From the NCBI RefSeq assembly GCF_964194155.1, contig NC_135890.1:85064001-85128000 (forward strand): a DNA stretch of 64,000 nucleotides, in the 5' to 3' direction. The position numbers were made by a program, and so were the translations under genes. The DNA comes from Cetorhinus maximus. Lineage: Eukaryota. Positions 19,650 to 57,868 of the stretch are shown here, one piece after another (position 1 is the stretch's first letter; the number at the start of each line of letters is the position of its first letter). Below the pieces are notes generated by a model. It did no database searches, was not told where the DNA came from, and saw nothing but the letters and a program-made list of their open reading frames with translations.

Positions 19650-22270
19650 ATGGCCAGCTATAGGTGCAGGGGGTCTGCACAGCAGGCTCTGGAGGAGGGC
19701 AGGCCAGAGGAGGAGGACAGGCTGCAGGGTAGGCCAGTGGGGAGCCAATGTGCCCCTCGTTTCTCTGATGCCTGCCTTGTTGCCCTTCTCGAGGAGGTGG
19801 CAGCACGATGAGGGGTCCTGTTTCCTGAGGATGGGAGGAGGAGGGCCCCCCACGTCACAAAGCAGGCCTGGCAGGAGGTGGTGGAGGTGGTCAGCTCCCA
19901 AGATGCTGTCCGTCGAACAGGGACCCAGTACCGCAAGCGCTTCAATGATTTGTTGCGCTCTGGATGGGTGAGTACCATGTCGACTGTGGCCATTTAACCC
20001 AGCAGGTAGCCTTAGCCTTTGAGGCCACCCCCCATGTCTTAGTGTCGTTACTGCATTGAGCAGTTGGCGCACGCTGGGTGGGCAAACAGATAGTGACCAT
20101 GCTTATATCAGCCTTAGTGGTTGATGAGAAGATGGGTTCTCCCCGCAGCATATGTTGGTGTTTGTCACATTTGAGTAGTCTGGGGGCAACCTGCAGGAGA
20201 GGCAGCTAGGTACATACTCAGAACTCCAACACATGTCTTATTGATGGTGTTGAGATGGTGGAAGGGGAGCCTCAAGGTGCCGTGGCCAAGAGCCATCTGC
20301 TGGCCTTGGCGCCACACCTAGTTGCGCCTCCTTGCCATGGGCGCTAAGACCCCTGTGATATTGAAAGTGATGGACGCCGAATATGTCCAAGGTGGTCGTT
20401 GCTGGAGGGGGTTGGGAGCAGCCGTACTATCTTCTGGTGACTGATCACCAGTAGTGTGGACAGGAGCCGCTGGAGACCTCAGATGGGCCACTGTGGTTGG
20501 GGTGCGGCGTGCCCGTGCAGAGTACATGAGCGATCAGCCCCAATAAATGGTGTTCTCTGTTCTGCAGGCGAAAACTGAGCACAACACCCAAGAGTGTTTG
20601 CGCACTGGTGGTGGCCAGGCCATGCTGCACACAGTGACCCACTTCGAAGAACAGGCCATGGAGCTAGAAAGAAGCCAAGCGGCCAGGTCGGCAGGTGTCG
20701 GTGAGGCTGGGGTGCAGCAGCCAGGTATTTGAGGCCCACGGTTCCATCCACTCTGTCTTCCCACCATCCAAAGCACTGATGATTGCTGCAATCGCCAATG
20801 CAGCAACACTGCTCATTCATAGACTGATACAGTCAGACATGTGGGTCATACACAAAGGTCCCTCGGCCCCTTGAGGATGCACGTCTCTAGCATCTTCCAA
20901 AGTCGCCTTATCCCATTTCTGACCACTATCCCCATGGCCTAACATGCCATGGCATTGCTGCTGCACATCCAAATATTTATTGCATCTTAGGAGGGTTTGT
21001 ACCTCCACCACCCTTTCAGCCAGTGCGTCCCACATTACTCTGTCCAAAAGGTCCTCAGCACCTCACCTGTCAACCTCATGGCACTCAACATAAATCAATG
21101 CCACCACGTTAGTCATCTCTCCACCAAGGGGAAATGTTGCCTTCTGTCCACCCGGCCTATGCCCCTCATGACGGTATGAAGGTCAATAATTTGACCTATC
21201 AATCTCCTGTGCTCCACGGCAAATGTCACAAGTGTATGCAATGTTTCCTCATAACTCCAACTCTCCAGGCCAGCATGCATTCTGGTCAGGAACCACTGCA
21301 CTCTCTCCACTCCAATGCCTTCCCTCCCATGAAGCGCAGGTCACAACTGAACGCAAAAGTGTAGCTGTGGCCTCGACAGCGTTTTCTGCACTTGCAACAT
21401 AACCTCCCTTTTCCTGCATTCTATTCCTCGGCTAATAAAGGCAAGTCTGGCTTTTACCTTGATAAAAACCTTATGTTCCTGTTCTGCTACCTTAATGGGT
21501 CTGCCCAGCAAGATCCCTGTGATCGTCCTAACTTTCCATGGTCCTACCATTTCTACTGTATTCCCATACCTTGTTTGTCTTGCCCAAGTGCTTAACCTCA
21601 CACTTATCCACCTAACATTCCATGTGGCATTCCTTAGGCCATCTGACCAGCATGTCTGTATGCGCGTGTAACGTTTGGGCCTCCTCTTGACTATTTACCA
21701 CCCCACCAATGTCTGTCTCCTTAGGTTCTTGAAGGTTGAGCGCATTATGAGCCTGGGGGGGGAAGGGATGAATTGTGTTACTGACTGAACGCTAACTGAT
21801 GCACTGTCCTTGTTGTTAATTTCAGCATCACCACCGCATGGCTGCCAGGAGGACGTCCAGAGTCCCGCTTCCACGCCTGAGGGGCGTCAATTGGCACGAG
21901 CGTCACATCATTTCAGTGAGCCAGGCACCAGTGCAGCGACTACCACATCGGTGGGGAATATAACGTTGGCTAGTGTCGCGGGGCACAGTGGAGAGGGCAC
22001 TTCACAATCGCTGGAGGAGATGGCACGGACAGAGAGTGCCGATGGCGCCAACAACCGGAGGACTACATGGAACCAGGTACATGCTGAGTCGGGCCGTGAT
22101 ATGCTGCCTCTGGAGATGTCAGCCATGCAGCAGCTGCAGGACAAGCGGCCGGGTGCGCGGGAGCATCTGGCAGGGTTGCATGAGAGTGTGCTTCACTTGG
22201 TCTCTGTGGTGGAGGAATCCAGGCAGAATGTCAGTGATGGCATGAACCTCAGGACAGAGCGTCAGGCTGA
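19650..22270 (+). pseudogene. Harbinger Myb/SANT-like (NAIF1/MSANTD-type) DNA-binding gene, exons 19650-19967, 20568-20724, 21826-~22270
   Basis: PRFSDACLVALLEEVAAR*GVLFP..W.EV...RT..Q.RKRFNDL trihelix motif. GT-AG sites are phase-consistent (0 then 1). One TGA at 19809 (probable CGA decay). 3' end lost in the deletion. Confidence 0.85.
20895..21725 (-). mobile_element. Diverged CR1 3' fragment inside the Harbinger Myb intron
   Basis: LAFISRGIECRKREVMLQVQKTLSRPQLHFCVQ and ERVQWFLTRMHAGLESWSYEETL..RRLIGQII are CR1 ORF2 C-terminal motifs. Confidence 0.8.
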
Positions 22271-33735: not shown

Positions 33736-36050
33736 GGGCTGGATTTCCGTGACCGAGGCAGGTAGGTTAAGGCAGGAAGTTTCCCGACTTGGCAGACTTG
33801 TCTCAGTTTAAAGGGTCCTGTTGGACTCAATTTCTGCTCCAGGGAGGCGGGGGTGAGATAAAGTCAGGCCCCCTGATCCCAGAAGCAGATCCTAGGGGGC
33901 AAGGGGGCTGGGCGAGTGCTGAGGTGGGCTGATTAGAAGTTCTCAGTTCTCTGTGTTGTTTTAGCAGCTGTTAGGCACTCAAGCTCTCACCCTTCACCCA
34001 CTTACCATGTCCCCTCGTGCCCCCATGTCACCTCCATGCCAACACATGCCACTCACCCAGCCACATGGCATCTCATACCTCCATGCCACTTCCATGCTAA
34101 CTCATGTTCCCACCCACTCATATGCACCCTCTTTCCCCATGCCACCTGCATAGCCACTCACCCAGGATCCATAGAACCATAGAAAAGTTACAGCATAGAA
34201 GGAGGCCATTCAGCTTATCTTGTCCATGCCAGCCCGATGACACCCAGGTGCCCTTTCTAATCCCACCTTCCTGCACCCGGCCCATTGCCCTGCAGCTTAC
34301 AGCACTCAAGGTGCAGATCCAGGTACTTTTTAAAAAGAGTTTAGAGTTTCTGCCTCTACCACCAACTTGGGCGGCGAATTCCAGGCACCCACTACCCTCT
34401 GCGTAAAAAAGTTCTTCCTCATGTCCCCCCTACACCTTCTGCCACTTATCTTGAATCTATGTCCCCTGGTTCTAGAATTCTCCACCAAGGGAAACAATTT
34501 TATCCTGTCCACTCTATCTATTCCCCTCATAATTTTGTACAGCTCAATCAAGTCACCTCTCAGCCTTCTTTGTTCTAAAGAAAATAACCCCACCCTATCC
34601 AATCTCTCCTGGTAGCTACACTTTTCTAACCCTGGCAACATTCTTGTAAACCTCCTCTGCACTCTCTCCAGAGCTATTACGTCCTTCCTGTAATGTGGTG
34701 ACCAGAACTGCACACAATACTCCAGTTGTGGCCTCACCAGTGTTTTATACAATTCCAACATTATATCCTTACTTTTATATTCTATACCTCTGCCAATGAA
34801 GGAGAGCATTCCATATGCCTTCTTTACAACCTTGTCTACTTGAACTGCTGCCTTCAGGGACCTGTGTACTTGTATGCCAAGATCTCTCATTTCATCTACC
34901 CCTCTTAGTATATTCCCATTTATTGTGTAATCCCTGTAACTGTTTGACTGCCCTAACTGTTTGACCGCCCTAAATGTATGACCTCACACTTCTCTATGTT
35001 AAAATCCATCTGCCACTTTACCGCCCACTCCACCAACCCATCTATATCACTTTGGAGATTATGGCGATCCTCTACACTATCCACTACTCGGCCAATCTTT
35101 GTGTCATCTGCAAATTTCCCAATCGTGCCCCCCATGTTCACGTCCAAATCGTTAATGTATAACACAAACAACAAGAGTCCCAACACCGAGCCCTGTGGAA
35201 CACCACTTGAAACAACTTTCCATTTGCAAGGGCATCCATCGACCATTTCCCGTTGTTTCCTGTTACAAAGCCAACCTTTTATCCAATTTGCCACATTACC
35301 CTGAATCCCATGGGCTTTTACTTTCCTGACCAATCTGCCATGTGGGACCTTGTCAAATGCCTTGCTAAAATCCATGTACACAACATCCACTGCACTACCT
35401 TCATCAATGCTTCTTGTCACTTACTCAAAGAATTCAATCAAATTTGTGAGGCAAGACCTTCCTTCAACAAATCCATGCTGACCATCCCTGACTAGTCCAT
35501 GCCTTTCCACATGACAGTTAATCCTATCTCTCAGGATTGATTCTAATAATTTGCTCACCACCGATGTAAGACTAACTGGCCTATAATTGTTTGGCATTTC
35601 CTTTGATCCCCTTTTAAACAATGGAACTACATTTGCACCATGGGCAGGCCTCCGGAGCCATGCAGAGATGAAAAAAAAAATTCTAAAATTCTAATACAGC
35701 TCTCACTCATACACATTTGACAGTGAAAAAAAACTCCCATTCATGAAACCCATTCAAAACTTTTAAATATCAAGTGGGTAACCTGTTATAAAACAAACAC
35801 ACTTCTATTAAGTAGCCACATCAAAGACAGCTATTTGTTTAATAACATTGTCTCTTTATACTGTCAAACAAATGGTGAACTCAGAACACCCTGCTGAGAT
35901 AAGTGCTTTTGTAGAATTGTAACTCAACCATGCATTCAGAACGACAAAACAACAGCCCTCAGGAAACGTAACAAAGACTCCTATTGAAACTGTGGAACAG
36001 TTAGTTATGTTATATCATGTGCCCCTGAGGGTATCATAGAAGGATGTTCC
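33736..36050 (+). mobile_element. Harbinger-type MITE (same family as 8108-9188), split by CR1
   Basis: Terminus gggctggatttcc after aat; ccatgcc-rich minisatellite 34000-34165; resumes at 35638. Confidence 0.7.
34170..35637 (-). mobile_element. Young 5'-truncated CR1 (HER1-like) LINE
   Basis: Long ORF2 pieces: NYRPVSLTS, YMDFSKAFDKVPH, GVPQGSVLG, KFADDTK, RDLG..LYKTLVRPQLEYCVQFWSP. (ttctatg)n tail reversed at 34170-34185. Confidence 0.95.
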
Positions 36051-39774: not shown

Positions 39775-42103
39775 ATGGTGGAATTTTAATTCACTAAATA
39801 TCTGGAATTAAAAGTTAAATGATGACCATGAAACCATTGTCGGTTGTCGTAAATACCCATCTGGTTCACTAATGTCCTTTAGGGAAGGAAATCTGCCATT
39901 CTCACCTTGTGGGGCTTACATGTGACTCCAGATCCTCAGTAATGTGCCTTCTGAAATGGCCTAGAAAGCCACTCAGTTGTATCAAACTGCTAAAAAGTCA
40001 ATAAAAAGGAATGAAACCAGATGGACCACTGGCATCGACCTAGACACTGGAAACGACAACGGCAAACCCAGTCCTGTCGACTGTGCAAAGTCCTCCTTAC
40101 GAACATATAACCTCATGGCCCAGCATATTCCCCACCCTACCATTACCACCAAGCCAGGGGATCAACCCTGTATCAATAAAGAGGGCATGCAGGACAAGCA
40201 CCAGGCATACCTAAAAATGAGGTGTCAACCCAGTGAAGCTGCAACAGATGGACAGAGCTAAGCGATTCCACAACCAAAGGATCAAATCTAAGCTCTGCAG
40301 TCCTGCCACATCCATTCATGAATGGTATGGACAATTAAACTGCTCACTGGAGGAGGAGGCTTCACAAATATCCCCATCCACAATGATGGAGGGGCCCAGC
40401 ACATCAGTGCAAAAGAGAAGGCTGAAGCATTTGCAACAAACTTTAGCCAGAAGTGCCGAGTGGATGACCCATCTCGGCCTCCTCCAGAGGTCCCTAACGT
40501 CACAGATGCCAGTCGTCAGACAATTCGATTCACTCCACGTGATATCAAGAAATGGCTGAAGGCACTGGGTAATGCAAAGGCTATGGGTCCTGATAATATT
40601 CCAGAACTAGTGCTCCAGAGCTTGCCACACCACTGGCCAAGCTGGTCCAGTACAGCTACAACACATGCATCCACCCAGCAATGTGAAAAATTGCCCAGGT
40701 ATGTCTTGTATACAAAGAGCAGGGCAAATACCAACTTGGCTAATTACTGCTCCATCAGTCTACTCTCCATCATCAGTAAAGTGATGGAAGGGGTCATCAA
40801 CAGTGCTATCAAGCTGCACTTGCTTGGCAATCACCTGCTCACTGACGCTCAGTTTGGGGTCCGCCACGGCCACTCAGCTTCTGACCTCATTACAGCCTAG
40901 GTTCAAACATGGACACAAGAGCTGAACTCCAGAGATGAGGTGAGAGTGACTGCCCTTGACATCAAGGCAGCATCTGACCTAGTGGGCATCAAGGAACCCT
41001 AGCAAAACTGGAGACAATGTGAATCAGGGGGAAAACTCTCCGCTGGTTGGAGTCATACCTATCACAAAGGAAGATGGTTGTGGTTGTTGGAGGTCAATCA
41101 TCTCAGTTCAGGACATCATTGCAGGAGTTCTTCAGGGTAGTGTCCTAGGCGCAACCATCTTCAGCTGCTTCATCAATGACCTGCCTTCCATCATATGGTC
41201 AGAAGTGGGGATGTTCGCTGATGATTGCACAATGTTCAGCACTTTTCATGACTCCTCAGATACTGAAGCAGTCCATGTCCAAATGCAGAAAAACCTGGAC
41301 AATATCCAGGCTTGAACTGACAAGTGGCGAGTAACATTCGTGCCACACAAGTGCCAGGCAATGACCATCTCCAACAAGAGAGAATCCAACCATCACGCCT
41401 TGACATTCAATGACATTACCATCGCTGAATCCCCCACTATCAACATCCTGGGGATTACCATTGACCAGAAACTGAACTGGAGTAGCCACATAAATACTGT
41501 GGCTGCAAAAACAGTCAGAGGCTAGGAATCCTGTGGCGAGTAACTCACCTCCTGACTCCCCAAAGCCTGTCCACCATCTACAAGACATAAGTCAGGAGTG
41601 TGATGGAATACTCTCTGATTGCCTGGATGAGTGCAGCTCCAACAACAATCAAGAAGCTTGAAACCATCCAGGACAAAGCAGCCCACTTGATTGACACCCC
41701 TTCCACAAACATTCACTTCCTCCACCACCAACGCACAGTACCATATACAAGATGCACTGTAGAAACTCACCAAGCCTCCTTAGGCAGCATCTTCCAAACT
41801 CACGACCACTACCATCTAGAAGGACAAGGGTAGCAGATACATGGGAAAACCACTGCCTGGAAGTCCCCCTCCAAGCCACTCACCATCCTGACTTGGAAAT
41901 ATATAACCGTTTCTTCACTGTCGCTGGGGTCAAAATCCTGGAACTCCCTCCCTAACAGCACTGTAGATGTACCTACACCACAGGGACTACAGCGGTTCAA
42001 GAAGGCAGCTCACCACAACCTTCACAAAGGTGATTAGGGATGGGTAATAAATGCTGGTCTAGCCAATGATGCCCACAGCCCATAAAAATGAATGAAAAAA
42101 AAA
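39775..42103 (+). mobile_element. L2/Crack-like (CR1-group) LINE with SINE-like 5' body, endonuclease region deleted
   Basis: RT motifs NYCSISLLSIISKVME, AGVLQGSVLG, MFADDC; tail ttagggatgggtaataaatgctgg..atgaatgaaaaaaaaa. 39775-39960 matches the body of the SINE at 52648. Confidence 0.9.
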
Positions 42104-44857: not shown

Positions 44858-45079
44858 CTTATTGCCATGGCTCATTATCCAACCAAAACTTTTGACACCA
44901 CAGGCAATCCGATTAATAGATACATCCAGGCAGGTCACAGTATTTCCATAGATGGAGTGAAGTATCTTTGGCTCTGTATCATGGTTGAGTAAGTAAACAG
45001 TATCTTCAGCTGCTGCTACTATTGGTTGATTTTCATCTGTATTTACAGCAACACCTGGAACAAGCTGAAGGTAGCTAAC
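44858..45079 (-). CDS. FBXW8: FBXW8 coding exon, 222 bp
   Basis: Acceptor ttattttatag|GT and donor AAG|gtattt. 74 open codons VSYLQLVPGVAVNTDENQPIVAAAEDTVYLLNHDTEPKILHSIYGNTVTCLDVSINRIACGVKSFGWIMSHGNK, matching the FBXW8 VQYLEIVP...VTCLDVS...GW motifs. Phase 0/0. Confidence 0.94.
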
Positions 45080-49330: not shown

Positions 49331-50022
49331 TAATAACATAAGTCTTCTCTCTCCACCAACTGCTCCCCCCAATCCAACACTTATTCAACTACTGCTCTCT
49401 TCACATCATCAAATACTTCGAAGCGCCACTCATATACTTCTCTACAGCTGCCTAAACAACCCACTACCCTTACCACTCAAATCTGCCTACTCCCTATCCT
49501 ACAAAGTCACTCCCAACCCAAAATCCCTAGGTCTCCTCCCATACCTCATTCGCTTAAATTCAAACTCCTCATATCAAATTCTCCAATTAACACTACGAAA
49601 TATACAAAAGATTATCACTTACTTTGAATGCACTCTCCCCACTTACACTTAAATATCACAATTATTCCACCTTTTCAGATCACAATGCTACCAGTAATAC
49701 CACTTGCACGTGAGCAAGCACAATCTCTAAGCCATACTTCAGTTCCAGCACACTAATACGAATCACTCCCAGACCTACTGTCCAAACTGTCTCACATGAA
49801 CAAAAAGAGGCAGTTGATAAAATCACAATACCTGCTTGAAATATAGATAAAGACTAAGACTGGCTTCTTCAACAGAGTTTTATTTTTTGATCCATAAAAC
49901 TCTATAACTTGTCTCACCCGTTTTCTCTTTTATACATTTTATACATTCAAGTGGGTACTTAGCTAGTTAACTGAAAATTACCAGTTGAACTCCTTGCGAA
50001 TCAACTGTTTCCTTCCCTAACA

Positions 50023-50034
50023 GATTCCCCTCTT
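50023..50034 (-). other. Polypurine tract of the Copia element
   Basis: Minus strand AAGAGGGGAATC immediately precedes the 3' LTR TGTT. Confidence 0.85.
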
Positions 50035-52647
50035 GTTAAGGTGAAAGTAACTCTTAAGTATATATAATATATTTTCCCATTCAATAAATCCCCTTCTTAA
50101 AAAAATACATATATAGAAATGTCAACACAAAAAGAATGTTCCTTTTTTGTCTTCTCAAAAGGAAAAGACGTCCCTCTTTGAAGATCTCCAATAACTGTTC
50201 GGAGTTCGCTCCTCTTTTCATGAAGCAGTCGGACAATTGGTAGCTGCTATCAATCCATTTGATCTTGACAATCTCCTTATTCTCTAACATCTGTTTTAAG
50301 CTTGCAATGTCAATTCGCAATCTCTTTTTGTTAACACACTTTGTAGAATGAACATTTTTCCAAAGTGACGTATTATCAAAAAGATATTCTAAAGATACCT
50401 TCCCTGAATACCTTTTACCAGTTAAAATTTCTGCCAGCATCTTTGATATAAAGAATGCCATATCTACCGCCTCAACAAGAGTGGAGTCTCCGCCACCGGA
50501 GTACTTTTTACAACTCTTCCTATTTTTTTCACTTCCCATGCCAAAGGGCAACATTTACGTTTTTCCCACCCATGAGAAATATTATAAACCTTCCCACACT
50601 CGAAAATCCATCACGCAGATTTGCATAAGACACATCACTAAACACAATCAGTTTCATTTTTCTAAGATCACCCAGAGATGGGAATTTCAAAACACACTGC
50701 TCCATTTTTAATTTTGTCAATATTTTGTTTACTCAAATGATTTCTTCAACCTTGGGATCATTCATTTTAGTGGTCAATTCCAAGACATCAAAACTGACTT
50801 CTGGCCTTGTTTGTTTGCCCAATTAGACTTCTGAGTTCCCTTTTTTCTGTTTCAGAAGCTGCTGTATCTTTCTGGGAGGCCCTATCATGACTAATTGTAA
50901 TGGGATTGACATTCTCCAAGTAGGATTGCTGATGTAAAATGACATGTGATCCGCTCTGCCTGATTTCCAATCCCATGTATTTAAATGCACCAGAAACCTG
51001 ACTTCCAATTTTGAACTCCGTTCTGAGCCCATGAATGATAACCATTTCAAATTCACTACTACCATCCCACAAAATATTGTCTACAAGCACCACAAAGATG
51101 CCTGCATGTTTCCTTCCATGGTGGCGATTAAACATTGCCCGGTCTGCTTCCAACTGAAGACAGCCCAACTGAGACAAAACTGACTTCACTGAGAAATACC
51201 AAACTCTAGGGGCATCATTTAAACTGTATGCGCATTTATTTAGCTTCCAGAGTGTTCATTCTGCGTTTGGTGCCTCTTTCGGTGGGTGGAGAAAAACTTC
51301 TCTTTGAGGTTGGTGTCCCTGCAAAAAAGGCAACTTTAATATCAATTGACTTGCACTCCCAAACACTTGTAGCCAAGATCATCTTCAGAATAACTTTTCC
51401 TGCTGTAAGTGAATCCACTCTTATATCCTGGTCACTTCATTTTTCTTCAAAACCTTGGTGTCACTAACCTGGCTTTAGCTTTATAAGTCCCATCAGGAAG
51501 CACTTTTTCCATGCATATCCATCCATGAGATAGAGCTGGTTGTCCCCTATCTGGCACCTCTGTGTACACCCCAAATTCTTTCCAACTATGTAGATCTTGC
51601 TGTTTGGCATCCTTAATTAATTTATCGTCTAATTTGTTTGAAGCTACTAAGACTTCTCGATCACATGGACTTCTGTTCCTTGTAGCATTACTTGTCTGTG
51701 CCATATTCCTTGAACTTATTAAGCTACATCCTCTATCCCGCCCCGAACTGTTACTGCTTGGTCTCCCACCCTCTTACTTATAGATGTTATTTCAATCATT
51801 CGTGATCTCTTCCTAGAGTCATGTTCACTCCCAGACCCACTGTCCGAACTGACACTACGTTTCTGTGCCTTCCATTTTTGTACTTCGTGTTCCCAATCCA
51901 TAGGCCTAACCCTCCTGCCCTTTCTCTCGTACATTTAAGCAGATTTTATATTTTCCCGTGGCCTTCCCTGCTCTACCTACAATCGTTACATCCCCCCATT
52001 GGCTAGCCCCTTCTGATGAGTATGTACCTTTAGTACCAGTTTTTGGCAGTTGTCCTCTGGGGCAAATTGCCTCAGCCTGTTCATCCAAATTACTGTATCC
52101 ATCTTCAGAGACCCGGTCAACCTCAGCAACCTGGTCTTCACAATCATGCAACATATGGGTATGAGAAGTACATGGTTCCTCACCCTTCCTACAGCCCTTT
52201 ACAGACCCGCAAATTTGTAATCCGTGCCAAGTAACCTCGATGAGTGTACCCGAATAGTCTGGTTTCCATGCTGTAAAATGACTGTTTTACCATCTTTACC
52301 TATAACCTTGCCTGGGCCTTTTCACTTGTTAAGTCCTTCTCTTTTATAATATACCATGTCTCCCTGATTAAAAATAGTTTCCGATGGTCATACATTGTGT
52401 GTCTTAGAGCTTGCTGAATTCTTTCTGAAACTTCGGCTTTAAGGAACGCTCTTCTACCCGTATGTTCAAAATGTTTAAATGTTCAGAAAAGGTAGACCTA
52501 ATTGTAGTTCCCTCCCAAGCTGGGGGGTGGTCACTCAGAACTGAAGGAACTTGGGTTTCTACCAAAAACCAACTGATATGGACTATAGCCCCCTAACATC
52601 TGCAGTGAGTTCTTAGCATGGACAGCCCAAAACTCATTGTTAGCATT

Positions 52648-52988
52648 GGGGAGGCAGTGGCATAGTAGTATTGTCACTGGACGAGTAATCCAGAGACCCA
52701 TGGTAATGCTCTGTGGACTTGGGTTCAAATCCCACCACTGCAGATAGTGGAATTTTAATTCAATAAATAAAAAGTCTGATGATGACCATTGTTGATTGTC
52801 ATAAAAATCCATCTGGTTCACAAATATTCTTTAGGGAAGGAGATCTGCCGTCCTTATCGAGTCTGGCCTACATGTGACTCCAGGCCCATAGCAACGTGGT
52901 TGACTCTTAAATGCCCTCTAAACAAGGGCAATTAGGGATGGGCAAGTCAGTGACACCCGCATTCCATGAATGAATGATAAAAAAAAAT
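52648..52988 (+). mobile_element. tRNA-headed SINE inserted in the Copia integrase
   Basis: A box tggcatagtagt and B box ggttcaaatccc. Body matches 39775-39960, tail matches 42030-42103, ends atgaatgaatgataaaaaaaaa. Splits DNGGEF/ANNEF. Confidence 0.88.
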
Positions 52989-53732
52989 TCCCCCCCACCC
53001 CCATTATCAGTGAGGAATTTTGCCAGTGCTTCCAATCTGGTCCCTATCCACTTTTCCATTACCTGATCCACAATTATTTTCTTTTCTTTACTGTGTAGGA
53101 TTGTCAACTGGCTTAATCTTACGGCCAAATCTATGAAATGTAAAATAAAAATGTTCTTTTCTTTATCCCACACCTTTAAATTCATCGCCACAACTTCATT
53201 GAAATCCCTCGTTAAGGGTAGACTCACTATGGGCCGCGATGGTGTCCTTCAGTATTTATTACATATATCACATCTATCGCTTATCTCCTCTGAATTTAGT
53301 GTACTCTCCATCCCTTATTCCTGCAACCCTTAGCAAAACTTTTAATCTTTGCAAAGAAGGGTGGGCAAACTGTGGAGGCAATTTTAACACAATTAGCTTT
53401 TTGGTTTCTAAATTCCTATCCCCTGATGCTAATAACAGTTCTTTAATCTCCTTGGTAGAAAAATTAGGTTTTGTTAAAGGACTACAATAGTGTCCAGATT
53501 GCGCAAATTGCAAATCTACAGGTTTTGCCGTGTTGTTCTCCATGTTCAGCTTCATTTGCGCTTTCTTCATCGATGGCCTGCTCAACAGTAATGGTATTTC
53601 GCTAGACACTGCTTCTGTACTGATGAAAAGATTGACCCCAACTATCTTACAGGGAATCACTACCCTTTTTAAAGATTTTAGGGTATCATCTTCAAATCTG
53701 AAGCTGGTGGAACTCTCAAATTCCTTAACCTT

Positions 53733-54402
53733 GGGGAGAATTTTCACATTGGTGCGTGGGGACAGGCCCCACATGCCGATGCGTAAAATGATGCGCGATG
53801 ACATTGGGTGAGAGTCCCGACGTCACCATGCGTCATTCCGATCGGCGGGCACACACCGAAGGCGGCTGTGTGCCCGCCAAACTGTCAAAGGCCTGTTAAG
53901 GTCATTAGGAGAGTAATTTAAATAATTGACAGGGCTGCCCGTCCAACCATAAGGTTGGCGGGCAGGTGAAGAGCCCAAGCAGCCTTTGCGTTTTTCATGA
54001 AACCTCATCCATGGGCGGGATGAGGTTTCATGAAGGTTTTATTAAATTAATAAATATTTTTCACACATTTTATAAACATATCCCAGCTCATGTGACACTG
54101 TCACATGAGGGGGCATGTCTAAATAATTTAAACCTGTCTTTATTTTAAACTTTCAATTTGAACTTAATCTCCCTGAGGTAGCTCTGTGCCTCAGAGATTT
54201 CTGCACTCTTTCGCGCACATGTGCAAAACAGCGCAGGCCCCAACTCTCCCTCCTCCCCCTGCTCGCACAGGTAGCGCTATTGGGCGCATGTCACGCTGGG
54301 TGGGCTTAATTGGCCCGCCCATGTAAATGGCAGCGTGCAGCCGATCGCAGGCGGCGATCTGCTCTGTACCTACTCCCAACCGACAGGCAGAAGATTCTGC
54401 CC
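53733..54402 (-). mobile_element. Harbinger MITE inserted in the Copia protease region
   Basis: TIR ggggagaattttc / gaagattctgccc and 3-bp TSD CTT. Both subterminal regions align with the ends of the 19404-23288 element in opposite orientation. Confidence 0.92.
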
Positions 54403-55554
54403 CTTATTTCAGTCCTTGTCATTTAAGGAGTCCAGGTAGCATTTTAACCAGTCTATTCCACAGACTGTAGACATGCATCCGCAGCTGAAGGAACCTGCAA
54501 CCTAGACATTCATCACTGGGCTGAAACCTCTTGTAACTAATACAATGCCCTCTCTTTGGTCAATATCACCATCTTCCGAGTCTTCTGCCTCATGTTTAAT
54601 TTCGAACACCTTATTATATCATTTAGGATAGTTCATTGCATAATGATATTTTCAACTGCATCTAAAACACCGTTTGACCACACCCCAGTCATTTATGGGG
54701 TTCATCCTTTTGTTGTAATTCTCCAATTCTTTTCTCCTGCCATAACTGTCAAAGGTGATTCTGTCTTCATTGTTTCTTGTTACAAATCTCCATTCGTACT
54801 GATGCTTGTGTCCTTTTTCTTGACGGTCTCACCGTCAACATTGTATCCTCCATTTTCTGTCTACCATCAAATGACCCATTTGCGCCATGAATGCTGCCGG
54901 AAAGAAATGTTTTCCGAGGAATTTTTTTTAAAAAAAGAGCTCCTGACATCTGTTTTAGCTGTGTGTGTCTTTCCGCGAATTTAACAAAACTAGAAGTCTG
55001 TCCATATTCGATACCCTGGCACAGTCTAGTAACTTAAATGCCCGCACTGACTGGGGAATTTCTAGACAGAACTTTTGCAATCTTGCATATGGCCTACTGA
55101 GTTCCATTAATCTTCTATGGGATTATCCAGCTTTCTAAATTTGTCAAAATCTGACCACGCTTCATAAGCACTTAACAGTCATCCTTCTGATAGATCTTAT
55201 CCATAAAATCTAATAGCATCTCCAAACCTTCATCCATGTTCAAATGCTCAGGCTCCAACTCCAAAAATACTTTGCATCTTATTTTGCTTTTGTATCGTAA
55301 CGAAAGTGCCAAGGCCATTCCTGGTATTTTTTCTTTGGCAAGGACATAACCAGTGTCCACATGATTACTACATTCTTCTGGCGCTCATAGGGTTCACTTT
55401 CAGAAAACCTCGGTGGGTAATCATACCCTTAAATGCTACATTTTGATTCAGCCATTCTCCAAAGGTAATCAAAACCACTTTTCTCAAAGTTAAATCCAAA
55501 TGCAGTCTTTTGTCTGAAGAAAGCTTAGTTTCCAATCTTTTACTTATAAGCAGG

Positions 55555-55572
55555 AACCATCCTCTGCTACCA
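55555..55572 (-). other. Primer binding site complementary to tRNA-iMet
   Basis: Minus strand TGGTAGCAGAGGATGGTT, 1 nt from the 5' LTR. It is the 18-nt complement of the vertebrate initiator tRNA-Met 3' end (AACCATCCTCTGCTACCA). Confidence 0.93.
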
Positions 55573-55765
55573 CTGATAAAGTCACAAGGCCTGCTTGAAA
55601 TAAAGATAAAGATTAAGACTGGCTTCTGCAGCAGAGTTTTATTTTTTGGTCCATAAAACTATACAGAGAATTTGTCTCACCTGTTTTCTCTTTTATATAT
55701 TCAAATGGGTACTTAGCTAGTTAACTGATAATTACCAATTAAACTCCTTGTGAGTTAAGTGTTTC

Positions 55766-56040
55766 TTCAGCTGTGGCTCAGTTCATAGCACCCTCGCCTT
55801 TGAATCAGAGGGTTGTGGGTTCATGTCCCACTCCCGGAAACCAAGAACTGTGATTGTACTCGAAAGAGTTGCAATCTGTGACTGTTGATAACTCGAAAGA
55901 GTTTCAGCTGTGGCTCAGTCCATAGCACCCTCGCCTTTGAATCAGAGGGTTGTGGGTTCATGTCCCACTCCTGGAAACCAAGAACTGTGATTGTACTCGA
56001 AAGAGTTGCAATCTGTGACTGTTGATAACTCGAAAGAGTT
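55766..56040 (+). repeat. 137-bp tandem duplication of a tRNA-derived SINE head plus hairpins, inside the Copia 5' LTR
   Basis: Two near-identical units starting ttcagctgtggctcag (55766, 55903). A/B boxes tggctcagt and ggttcatgtccc. Each unit has actc-gaaa-gagt twice. Confidence 0.9.
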
Positions 56041-56734
56041 TCCCCAACAGCAGTCACTTGTAATGTACAAATTCTCTAGCACAGGAGGTACCAGAGCAGC
56101 AAAAGACCAGGACCACGATATCTGCAGTATCTTAACAGACCACAAAGTGTTGACATAACATCCTTTGACAAATCTTTAGCTTTGCTTTAGCAGCAGAACA
56201 CCACACTAACCTGGATATAGCAAGAACATTTCTCCCCATGGTATTATGAACTCTAGGCAAAGGCAGTTAATGATCTGTCAATTAAATCCTTGAAAAACAA
56301 ACTAAACAAATATTTGTTCATGACAGTGATTGAAGATTTTAAGGAAAAGTTAAAATAATCACAATGATTCCTGTGTTGCAGGAGACATGGAAGAATTACC
56401 TTTGGAATACAGCAACCCAAAGGGTAAATCTGTATTAATATGTAGTTTTGTATGACTACATTTGAGGGATTAGGGAGATATTTTACAGTGTTACCTTCTT
56501 GAAGATTCACTGTTAAATGGTTTCCTCTTTTAGAAAACTAAATTGATTGCACAAATTGTCCATGATGAAGCAAATTGTATATGATCTGTGATGGGTTAAA
56601 ATGACCTTGCTCATTACAATAGTCACTACATTCCCAAAGTAATTAGTTGAAGATTTTTGAGATCTTTGAACATAAAGTATTCTATAAATGTAAGTATTAG
56701 TGCTTTATTTATATCGATCTTTCTCCTAAATATA

Positions 56735-57098: not shown

Positions 57099-57295
57099 CA
57101 GTTTCTGGAGTTCAAACTCGTATGCTCTCCGCCAATATCCTTTCTCATCACTCGATTCTAATCTTACTTGATAGCCTGAGCAAGTTGCTATTGCAGCACT
57201 GTCTGATGCCACTGCTATAGCTTGTATCTCCTGGGTATGTTGATAATGATGAACTGGTTCCCGTGCAAGAACTGTGCTCCATACATCAACAGCAC
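57099..57295 (-). CDS. FBXW8: FBXW8 coding exon (WD40 region), 197 bp
   Basis: Acceptor cctgcag|GT and donor CTG|gtgagt. Translates (G)AVDVWSTVLAREPVHHYQHTQEIQAIAVASDSAAIATCSGYQVRLESSDEKGYWRRAYEFELQKL, matching recalled vertebrate FBXW8 (...PVHRFEHDARIQALALSQDDATVATAS...EEGYWQIAAEFEVPKL). Ends in phase 0, matching the next exon. Confidence 0.93.
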
Positions 57296-57868
57296 CTGCA
57301 GGTGAATACAAGAGGAAATCAGTAAAATGATTATGCAACATAGGCTCAGAAATTATATGCAAATAATATGACTTCTAAAAAATACTCACCCACAATTCCA
57401 TTAAAGCCCTTTAACTTAATACATTCAATAACTCAGCAATCGTTTCTCATTTTAAAAAATGCGTATCACTTTTCATATCACATGGAAAATTTCATAAATT
57501 AAACTTCGCAATGCAGTGGTTGCACACTGCACATTAATTTGGCTTGGACATTATGTTTAAGATCAGACAGATGAAGAAATAGTAATGCAAGATTCAATAA
57601 CTTTCAATTCCTCTAAAATACTTTGGCCTGTGTAAATTATTGGAAGTGCATAATACAATGTTAAAAATCAATTCTCAACAGGTACATAAATTGCAGGACA
57701 ACAAGCTGCTTTTTTGAAATCAAAAAAGTAAAGATCAGTACACAAACTACATTACAATTAGCACTGCAGCTGGTTTCCCATCAGGCCTTAAAGTACTGCA
57801 ATTCATGGGGTAATTTAAGTTGACCTGTATTCTCAGCTGACCCACATTTTGAGGGAATCGCACATTTA

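What the first reader, a model, noticed from the sequence alone, without database searches (positions are those of the whole stretch)
49815..56049. Complete Ty1/copia (GalEa-like) retrotransposon in a probable shark intron
Seen: both LTRs, GCAGT TSD, perfect tRNA-iMet PBS, PPT, and INT upstream of RT. Known: copia elements are scarce in vertebrates, and the GalEa clade (iMet PBS, short LTRs) is mainly described from aquatic invertebrates and some teleosts. Inference: a poorly described chondrichthyan copia lineage, possibly horizontally acquired. The LTRs differ at about 10 of the first 92 aligned bases, so this copy is old.
Basis: partly seen in the sequence, partly recalled or inferred. Interest (0 to 1): 0.7.

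Follow-up and report, generated by a model that had tools for sequence, protein, structure and literature searches.

The report
Ancient dead copia retrotransposon in shark
This is an old, broken copy of a copia-type jumping gene, likely of the marine GalEa group already recorded in sharks; it sits in an intron of the FBXW8 gene and a related species carries it at the same place, so it is an ordinary genomic fossil and not a recent import.

Summary
The anatomy is real: minus-strand LTRs, GCAGT duplication, 18-nt primer site matching a host tRNA-Met, polypurine tract, gag-PR-INT-RT-RH order, three nested insertions, inside an FBXW8 intron in gene sense. It is not complete: 174 bp of the integrase core, with the catalytic glutamate motif, are deleted and all frames are broken. 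It belongs to a large, apparently extinct family (12 copies form a star clade; LTR pairs 8-14% apart). Termini, primer site and motifs fit GalEa; no named reference sequences were available for a formal tree. A 2025 survey already lists GalEa in white shark and catshark. A second species about 97% identical in the flank carries the same insertion (contigs from three studies), so this copy was inherited vertically and is roughly 3-5 times older than that split. No recent donor was found (best full-length public relatives 52-56% amino-acid identity); ancient transfer is not excluded. Side finding: the 137-bp tandem in the 5' LTR is a very young SINE (5,566 exact 29-mer hits), absent at this site in the second species, found in LTRs of six copies of this family, four at one site.

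The parts
49810..49814 (.). target-site duplication GCAGT (left)
49815..50022 (-). 3' LTR, 208 bp, reads TGTTAG...TATCA on the element strand
50023..50034 (-). polypurine tract
   Evidence: same motif beside the LTR in L009, L017, L019, L029
50165..50800 (-). RNase H region, frameshifted
   Evidence: tblastn with public intact homologues
50800..51630 (-). reverse transcriptase region, stops and frameshifts; PF07727 E 2.5e-13 on the open piece 50791-51255
52230..53400 (-). integrase region, interrupted by an older SINE and by a 174-bp deletion (junction 52629/52630, CCCA microhomology) that removes the catalytic-glutamate motif
52647..52983 (+). nested older tRNA-type SINE with A-tail (family name not established)
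   Evidence: absent in copies L081, L093; same family at 73% identity inside L086 and L092; very abundant in both species
53450..54480 (-). protease region, split by the MITE
53733..54402 (.). nested 670-bp MITE-like element, imperfect GGG-starting terminal inverted repeats, CTT duplicated; Harbinger type by recalled features only
   Evidence: empty site in L081, L092; joints
54480..55455 (-). gag region with decayed zinc knuckle
55555..55572 (-). primer-binding site, 18 nt, tRNA-Met(CAT)
55574..56049 (-). 5' LTR, interrupted near its outer end
55766..56042 (+). nested dimer of a very young 5'-truncated tRNA-headed SINE (2 x 137 bp, TTC at the junctions)
   Evidence: absent at this site in organism B
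56050..56054 (.). target-site duplication GCAGT (right)
57099..57296 (-). FBXW8 exon upstream of the element
   Evidence: GT donor
44858..45079 (-). FBXW8 exon downstream of the element
   Evidence: AG acceptor

Best explanation
This is a dead, near-full-length Ty1/copia LTR retrotransposon, likely of the GalEa clade, that sits in gene sense in an intron of the shark FBXW8 gene and is present at the same place in a related species. Inferred from copia biology: it was transcribed from its 5' LTR as a gag-pol RNA, reverse transcription was primed by host initiator tRNA-Met at the 18-nt site and by the polypurine tract, and its DDE integrase inserted the DNA with a 5-bp duplication, during one old burst that left hundreds of copies and solo LTRs. 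Since then it has decayed: point mutations, frameshifts, a 174-bp integrase deletion, an older SINE, a MITE and, after the split from the related species, a young SINE dimer. It cannot transpose by itself.
For: Anatomy. Primer tRNA in the host. Family in own genome: LTR search 511 candidates, 40 scored, 78-85% identity; RNase H search 2,962 candidates, 150 scored, best other copy 69% and about 139 of 150 with stops (counted by eye). Of 30 LTR loci, 10 have the primer site (16-18 of 18, the window's own included) and 9 look like solo LTRs with 4-5 of 5 flanking bases duplicated. LTR-pair distances 0.083-0.141 in 4 other two-LTR copies. Star clade of 12 own copies plus one unnamed 122-aa record, support 1.0, stem 0.31. 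GalEa table in PMC5445492 Additional file 5: CoRex1/2 termini TGTtag..tatCA as here; PBS 11 of 12; motifs retained in other copies. Orthologous junction in organism B: one single-copy-depth contig joins 55765 to 56039 (37 letters on the LTR side) and runs into the unique flank in 3 of 4 runs, 3 studies; a B contig matches 54759-55081 at 8 differences in 320, where paralogues are 78-86%.
Against: No named GalEa, Hydra or CoMol sequence could be put in the tree, so clade membership rests on features and on unnamed homologues carrying those features. The left junction and the other two nested insertions were not shown in organism B. The window's own motifs are decayed (KARLVT, LVDN, TRPEV, SDCFMK). 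PBS base 12 is G, not the C of the published GalEa PBS (it matches the host tRNA). Only 150 of 2,962 RNase H candidates were scored, so a young subfamily could be missed.
Confidence: 0.9

Rival explanations
1. The family entered a shark ancestor by one ancient horizontal transfer from a marine invertebrate, burst once and died.
For: Star-like single burst; the shark clade lies among unnamed public elements, with named arthropod and cnidarian records (Petrolisthes, Nymphon, Hydractinia) in the same tree; uneven counts among sharks in PMC11889832 (719 and 210 against 1, 1 and 2 in three carpet sharks); that paper suggests transfer may help explain the marine distribution (passages).
Against: No close donor: 52-56% identity to the best full-length relatives and a 0.31 stem. 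GalEa is widespread in deuterostomes (13 species in tree 7; teleosts, tunicates, echinoderms, hemichordates), which allows plain inheritance with losses. A copia RT relic of this type is in a Heterodontus gene model. Low counts in carpet sharks come from a search for intact LTR pairs and can miss old copies.
Confidence: 0.25
2. Recent horizontal acquisition specific to this species.
For: None found.
Against: Same insertion in organism B, family at similar depth in B, LTRs 12% apart.
Confidence: 0.02
3. The element belongs to another marine copia clade (Hydra, CoMol or CoMar) that also uses a tRNA-Met primer.
For: No tree with named clade references was possible.
Against: Termini, PBS and motif set match the published GalEa table; the two sharks classified in PMC11889832 have entries only in the GalEa column. 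I did not see motif tables for the other clades.
Confidence: 0.06

Closest known systems
GalEa clade of Ty1/copia (GalEa1, CoRex1-2, Zeco1, Olco1, Cico1; PMC5445492 passages and Additional file 5 read; PMC3587641 passages and section 20 read)
   Same: TGT...CA LTRs of about 200 bp with CoRex-type ends, tRNA-Met PBS next to the LTR, 5-bp duplication, PR-INT-RT-RH order, about 5.1 kb without insertions (L081 spans about 5,118 bp), DSGC, KARLVA, DIKAAF, HVDD and SDAS motifs in sister copies.
   Different: PBS base 12 follows the host tRNA (G); this copy is dead, with a deleted integrase half and three insertions; subclade (Zeco1-like or CoRex1-like) not determined.
Shark GalEa clusters of Carcharodon carcharias and Scyliorhinus canicula (PMC11889832; passages and Additional files 3 and 7 read; sequence file 8 not readable)
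   Same: Same clade assignment, same host class, hundreds of copies, many orphans (71% in white shark), as expected of old decayed copies.
   Different: Identity with any of these clusters not tested; the passages read give no structure or age for them.
Insertion hotspots of young elements inside older ones (PMC2836564, abstract only) and RTE-type SINE signature (PMC6007223, abstract only)
   Same: The young SINE recurs at one position of this LTR family; its duplications are 13-15 bp and mostly start with T.
   Different: Partner LINE not identified; no T-stretch analysis done; small numbers.

Membership tests
Ty1/copia superfamily | integrase upstream of RT/RNase H in pol | tested here: met
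   the homologues used carry PF00665 before PF07727
Ty1/copia superfamily | copia-type RT (PF07727) | tested here: met
   E 2.5e-13, 50.6 bits against cut-off 31.6
GalEa clade | LTRs bordered by TGT and CA, about 130-310 bp | tested here: met
   TGTTAG/TGTTGG...TATCA, 208 bp
GalEa clade | 5-bp target-site duplication | tested here: met
   GCAGT; 9 of 30 LTR loci with 4-5 of 5 flank match, 3 perfect
GalEa clade | tRNA-Met PBS TGGTAGCAGAGC right after the 5' LTR | tested here: met
   11 of 12 identical; the twelfth base follows the host tRNA-Met gene
GalEa clade | motifs CX2CX4HX4C, D(S/T)(G/A)C, KARLVA, D(I/V)KxA(F/Y), (H/Y)VDD, (T/S)RPD(I/V), SDAS, ADxxTK | tested here: inconclusive
   decayed in the window; among 11 other copies exact knuckle 3, DSGC 4, KARLVA 5, DIKAAF 6, HVDD 1 (YVDD 1), SDAS 2, xRPD(I/V) 0, SDCFTK 3; these motifs are not all unique to GalEa
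GalEa clade | D,D(35)E integrase triad | tested here: not met
   not met in this copy: the glutamate-bearing stretch is deleted; 8 of 11 other copies keep it. A loss in one dead copy, not a family trait
GalEa clade | RT/RH monophyly with named GalEa references | not testable with these tools
   no named reference or other-clade sequences could be fetched; tree holds only own copies and mostly unnamed homologues
catalogued shark GalEa clusters (PMC11889832) | sequence identity to a cluster consensus | not testable with these tools
   Additional file 8 (.fa) not readable
tRNA-derived SINE (nested 137-bp unit) | tRNA-like head, 5' truncations, variable-length target duplications, dispersed near-identical copies | tested here: met
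   24 unselected single loci: 12 full-length 5' ends, 97-100% identity, duplication of 8 or more bases in 9 of 24 against 1 of 552 mismatched flank pairs; A/B-box likeness is recalled, Rfam gave no hit on it
Helitron2 or tyrosine-recombinase element (considered for the 137-bp unit) | fixed ends, no long target duplication | tested here: not met
   13-15-bp duplications and ragged 5' ends in unselected copies; the fixed TTC ends came from ranking by a query that held them

The most novel reading that the evidence does not exclude
A young, species-specific SINE homes to dead GalEa LTRs: four independent insertions sit at one site just upstream of the LTR's TATA-like box, which would mean that its LINE machinery reads something beyond a short motif, such as a promoter still open in the germ line long after the element died.
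Probability: 0.15. Interest if true: 0.5.

Novelty: new member of a known kind. Interest (0 to 1): 0.2.

Why it matters
As it stands it is an ordinary fossil. Its modest value: it gives structure and a relative age to shark GalEa elements, which the passages and tables I read only count, and shows that shared copies can be read as presence/absence markers between slow-evolving sharks; the young SINE, with thousands of 97-100% identical copies and nearly absent from the related species, is a candidate marker set for population work. If the SINE hotspot in the LTR is more than sequence preference, it would be a testable case of an old LTR attracting new retroposition.

Tried and rejected
Homologue search with the RT piece among longer proteins gave nothing; the word-free search worked. 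Pfam on 300 of 339 non-repeat open frames of 45 aa or more found no host exon above cut-off; the gene was spotted by recall in a translation and then tested. Idea that the copia RT exon of Heterodontus FBXW8 isoform X2 is the orthologue of this copy: rejected, it lies in another intron and that intron of the own genome holds no copia match; the 54-aa piece is as close to unnamed public elements (up to 74%) as to own copies (up to 74%), so family identity is open. Helitron, recombinase and ribozyme readings of the 137-bp unit: rejected. A DNA search with the inner 120 bp found no candidate because common words are skipped. One junction pattern was in the wrong orientation and gave 0. A second hotspot at the window's own SINE site was not found: of 5 hits only the window is at that site, 1 is in an LTR a few bases away and 3 are outside LTRs. 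Absolute dating with the epaulette-shark rate of 7e-10 per generation (PMC10587355, passages) gives 8.7e7 generations, implausibly old, so it was dropped. The protein atlas gave no answer. No RNA holder was listed. Literature: searches; in their listings only PMC11889832 dealt with shark copia and none named this SINE; Repbase and Dfam were not available.
Full report
Observation. The element lies on the minus strand. The LTR copies are at 49815-50022 and 55574-56049, bounded by GCAGT on both outer sides. They differ at 10 of the first 92 bases; over the whole LTR the K2P distance is 0.127 (199 columns) or 0.122 +/- 0.027 (198 columns). One base inside the 5' LTR lies an 18-nt primer site. A pattern for its complement has 130 hits in the genome; ARAGORN calls tRNA-Met(CAT) in 1 of 12 scattered loci and 2 of 3 stretches of a cluster on C32, and the gene ends in the matching 15 bases. 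That it is the initiator tRNA is from recalled hallmarks. A 12-nt polypurine tract abuts the 3' LTR. tblastn with three intact public homologues maps gag, protease, integrase, RT and RNase H in copia order with many stops and frame changes; the open RT piece scores above the PF07727 cut-off.

It is not complete. About 60 residues of the integrase core have no counterpart. Alignment with two other copies shows a 174-bp deletion between 52629 and 52630 with CCCA microhomology, 17 bp from the older SINE, removing the catalytic-glutamate motif. The three nested insertions are real, since other copies lack them: an older SINE (52647-52983), a 670-bp MITE-like element (53733-54402) and a dimer in the 5' LTR (55766-56042).

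Host context. An open frame at 44663-45079 matches human FBXW8 in the PDB (E 2.5e-9). The exon is 100% identical to a protein named Cetorhinus maximus FBXW8 and 71-92% to the 12 other chondrichthyan records, so the host is likely a lamniform shark. Exons at 57296-57099 and 45079-44858 flank the element, which lies in gene sense in an intron of about 12 kb.

The family. The LTR search gave 511 candidates, 40 scored, at 78-85% identity. The RNase H search gave 2,962 candidates, 150 scored; the best other copy is 69% identical and about 139 of 150 hold stops. Of 30 LTR loci, 10 carry the primer site and 9 look like solo LTRs (the end was not located in 6). Four other two-LTR copies among 15 stretches fetched have LTR distances of 0.083-0.141. 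A FastTree tree of RT/RH read with X at breaks puts the window, 11 copies and one unnamed 122-aa record in a star clade (support 1.0, stem 0.31, copies 61-77% alike); the best full-length public relatives are 52-56% identical to the window (25 closest full-length plus selected more distant records of 275 were used). This is the pattern of one old burst followed by decay.

Clade. Against the table in Additional file 5 of PMC5445492 the termini equal those of CoRex1/2, the PBS matches 11 of 12, the duplication is 5 bp, and sister copies keep the listed motifs in part. No named reference could be fetched, so the phylogenetic test is missing; GalEa is likely, not shown by tree. PMC11889832 already places copia of Scyliorhinus canicula and Carcharodon carcharias in GalEa only; its sequence file could not be read, which bears on whether this family is one of those clusters.

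Inheritance and age. Runs of a second species label (organism B) share 39-40% of the flank words. In B the family has depth comparable to A, a contig matches 54759-55081 with 8 differences in 320, and the flank differs at 23 of 737 bases. In 3 of 4 B runs, from three studies, a contig of single-copy depth joins 55765 to 56039 and continues into the unique flank: B has the copia LTR at this site without the SINE dimer. The insertion thus predates the A/B split. With 12% between LTRs against about 2.5-3% between species, a clock makes it about 3-5 times older than the split (inference; repeats may mutate faster). Recent transfer is excluded for this copy; ancient transfer is not. A Heterodontus FBXW8 gene model holds a copia RT piece, but in another intron that has no copia in this genome.

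Mechanism. Shown: structure, primer match, domain order, decay, shared site. Inferred from copia biology: transcription from the 5' LTR, tRNA-Met and PPT priming, integrase insertion with a 5-bp duplication, solo-LTR formation by recombination. It is non-autonomous and almost surely inert; expression was not testable.

The young SINE. The 137-bp unit has at least 18 copies identical over 140 bp, and a 29-mer from it has 5,566 exact hits, control 0. In 24 unselected single loci it is 97-100% identical, half have a full 5' end, and 9 show duplications of 13-15 bp against 1 of 552 control pairs, so it is a LINE-mobilised SINE. Its depth in B is about a thousandth of that in A, and what B shows is mostly the shared tRNA-like head. 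It sits in LTRs of six copies of this family (window, L096-L099, L136), in the gag of L095 and beside a related element in L037. A junction pattern finds four insertions at one LTR site just upstream of a TATA-like box, with different 5' junctions. The target 14-mer occurs 340 times; 4 of 30 sampled sites are in LTRs, so roughly 4 of 45 LTR sites and 0 of 295 others are hit. Against this: two of the four prompted the pattern, all four have the variant of the 14-mer that is in an LTR in 4 of 12 sampled cases, the site fits the SINE's general TT(C/G)A preference, a second site was hit mostly outside LTRs, and hotspots in older elements are known in human (PMC2836564, abstract). Sequence preference is the likelier cause.

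Verdict. A real, old, dead copia copy of a clade already recorded in sharks; inherited vertically at this site; low interest. The scan's index held nothing on this place, these words or the SINE.

Noticed in passing
window 55766-56042; G000 loci L031-L080: Very young tRNA-headed SINE of about 143 bp with two ACTC-GAAA-GAGT hairpins, thousands of 97-100% identical copies, frequent tandem dimers and trimers, 13-15-bp duplications; about a thousandfold rarer in the related species.
   Followed up: yes
L096, L097, L098, L099, L136, L095, L037: That SINE recurs inside copia copies, four times at one LTR site next to a TATA-like box; homing or sequence preference not settled.
   Followed up: partly
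P0278 residues 249-335: The Heterodontus francisci FBXW8 isoform X2 model includes a copia RT-derived stretch of GalEa type in another intron; real exon or annotation artefact unknown.
   Followed up: partly
L085 4086-5967: A copy of the family with both LTRs but a large internal deletion (about 1.9 kb long); single deletion or small non-autonomous form not checked.
   Followed up: no
G000:C32 about 8.8-18.9 Mb: Most of the listed tRNA-Met 3'-end matches (88 of the first 100) lie on C32, nearly all in a long run spaced 10-200 kb apart: a large dispersed tRNA gene cluster.
   Followed up: partly
window 19812-19994 (+): Weak Myb/SANT-like domain hit (E 0.00065, below cut-off), possibly a Harbinger-type transposon relic.
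   Followed up: no
window 45079-4517: The next FBXW8 intron is about 40 kb long and rich in LINE relics (for example near 34200-36000 and 39800-42100).
   Followed up: no
P0008: An unnamed 122-aa public record nests inside this shark family (about 65% identity to the copies); source not pursued.
   Followed up: no
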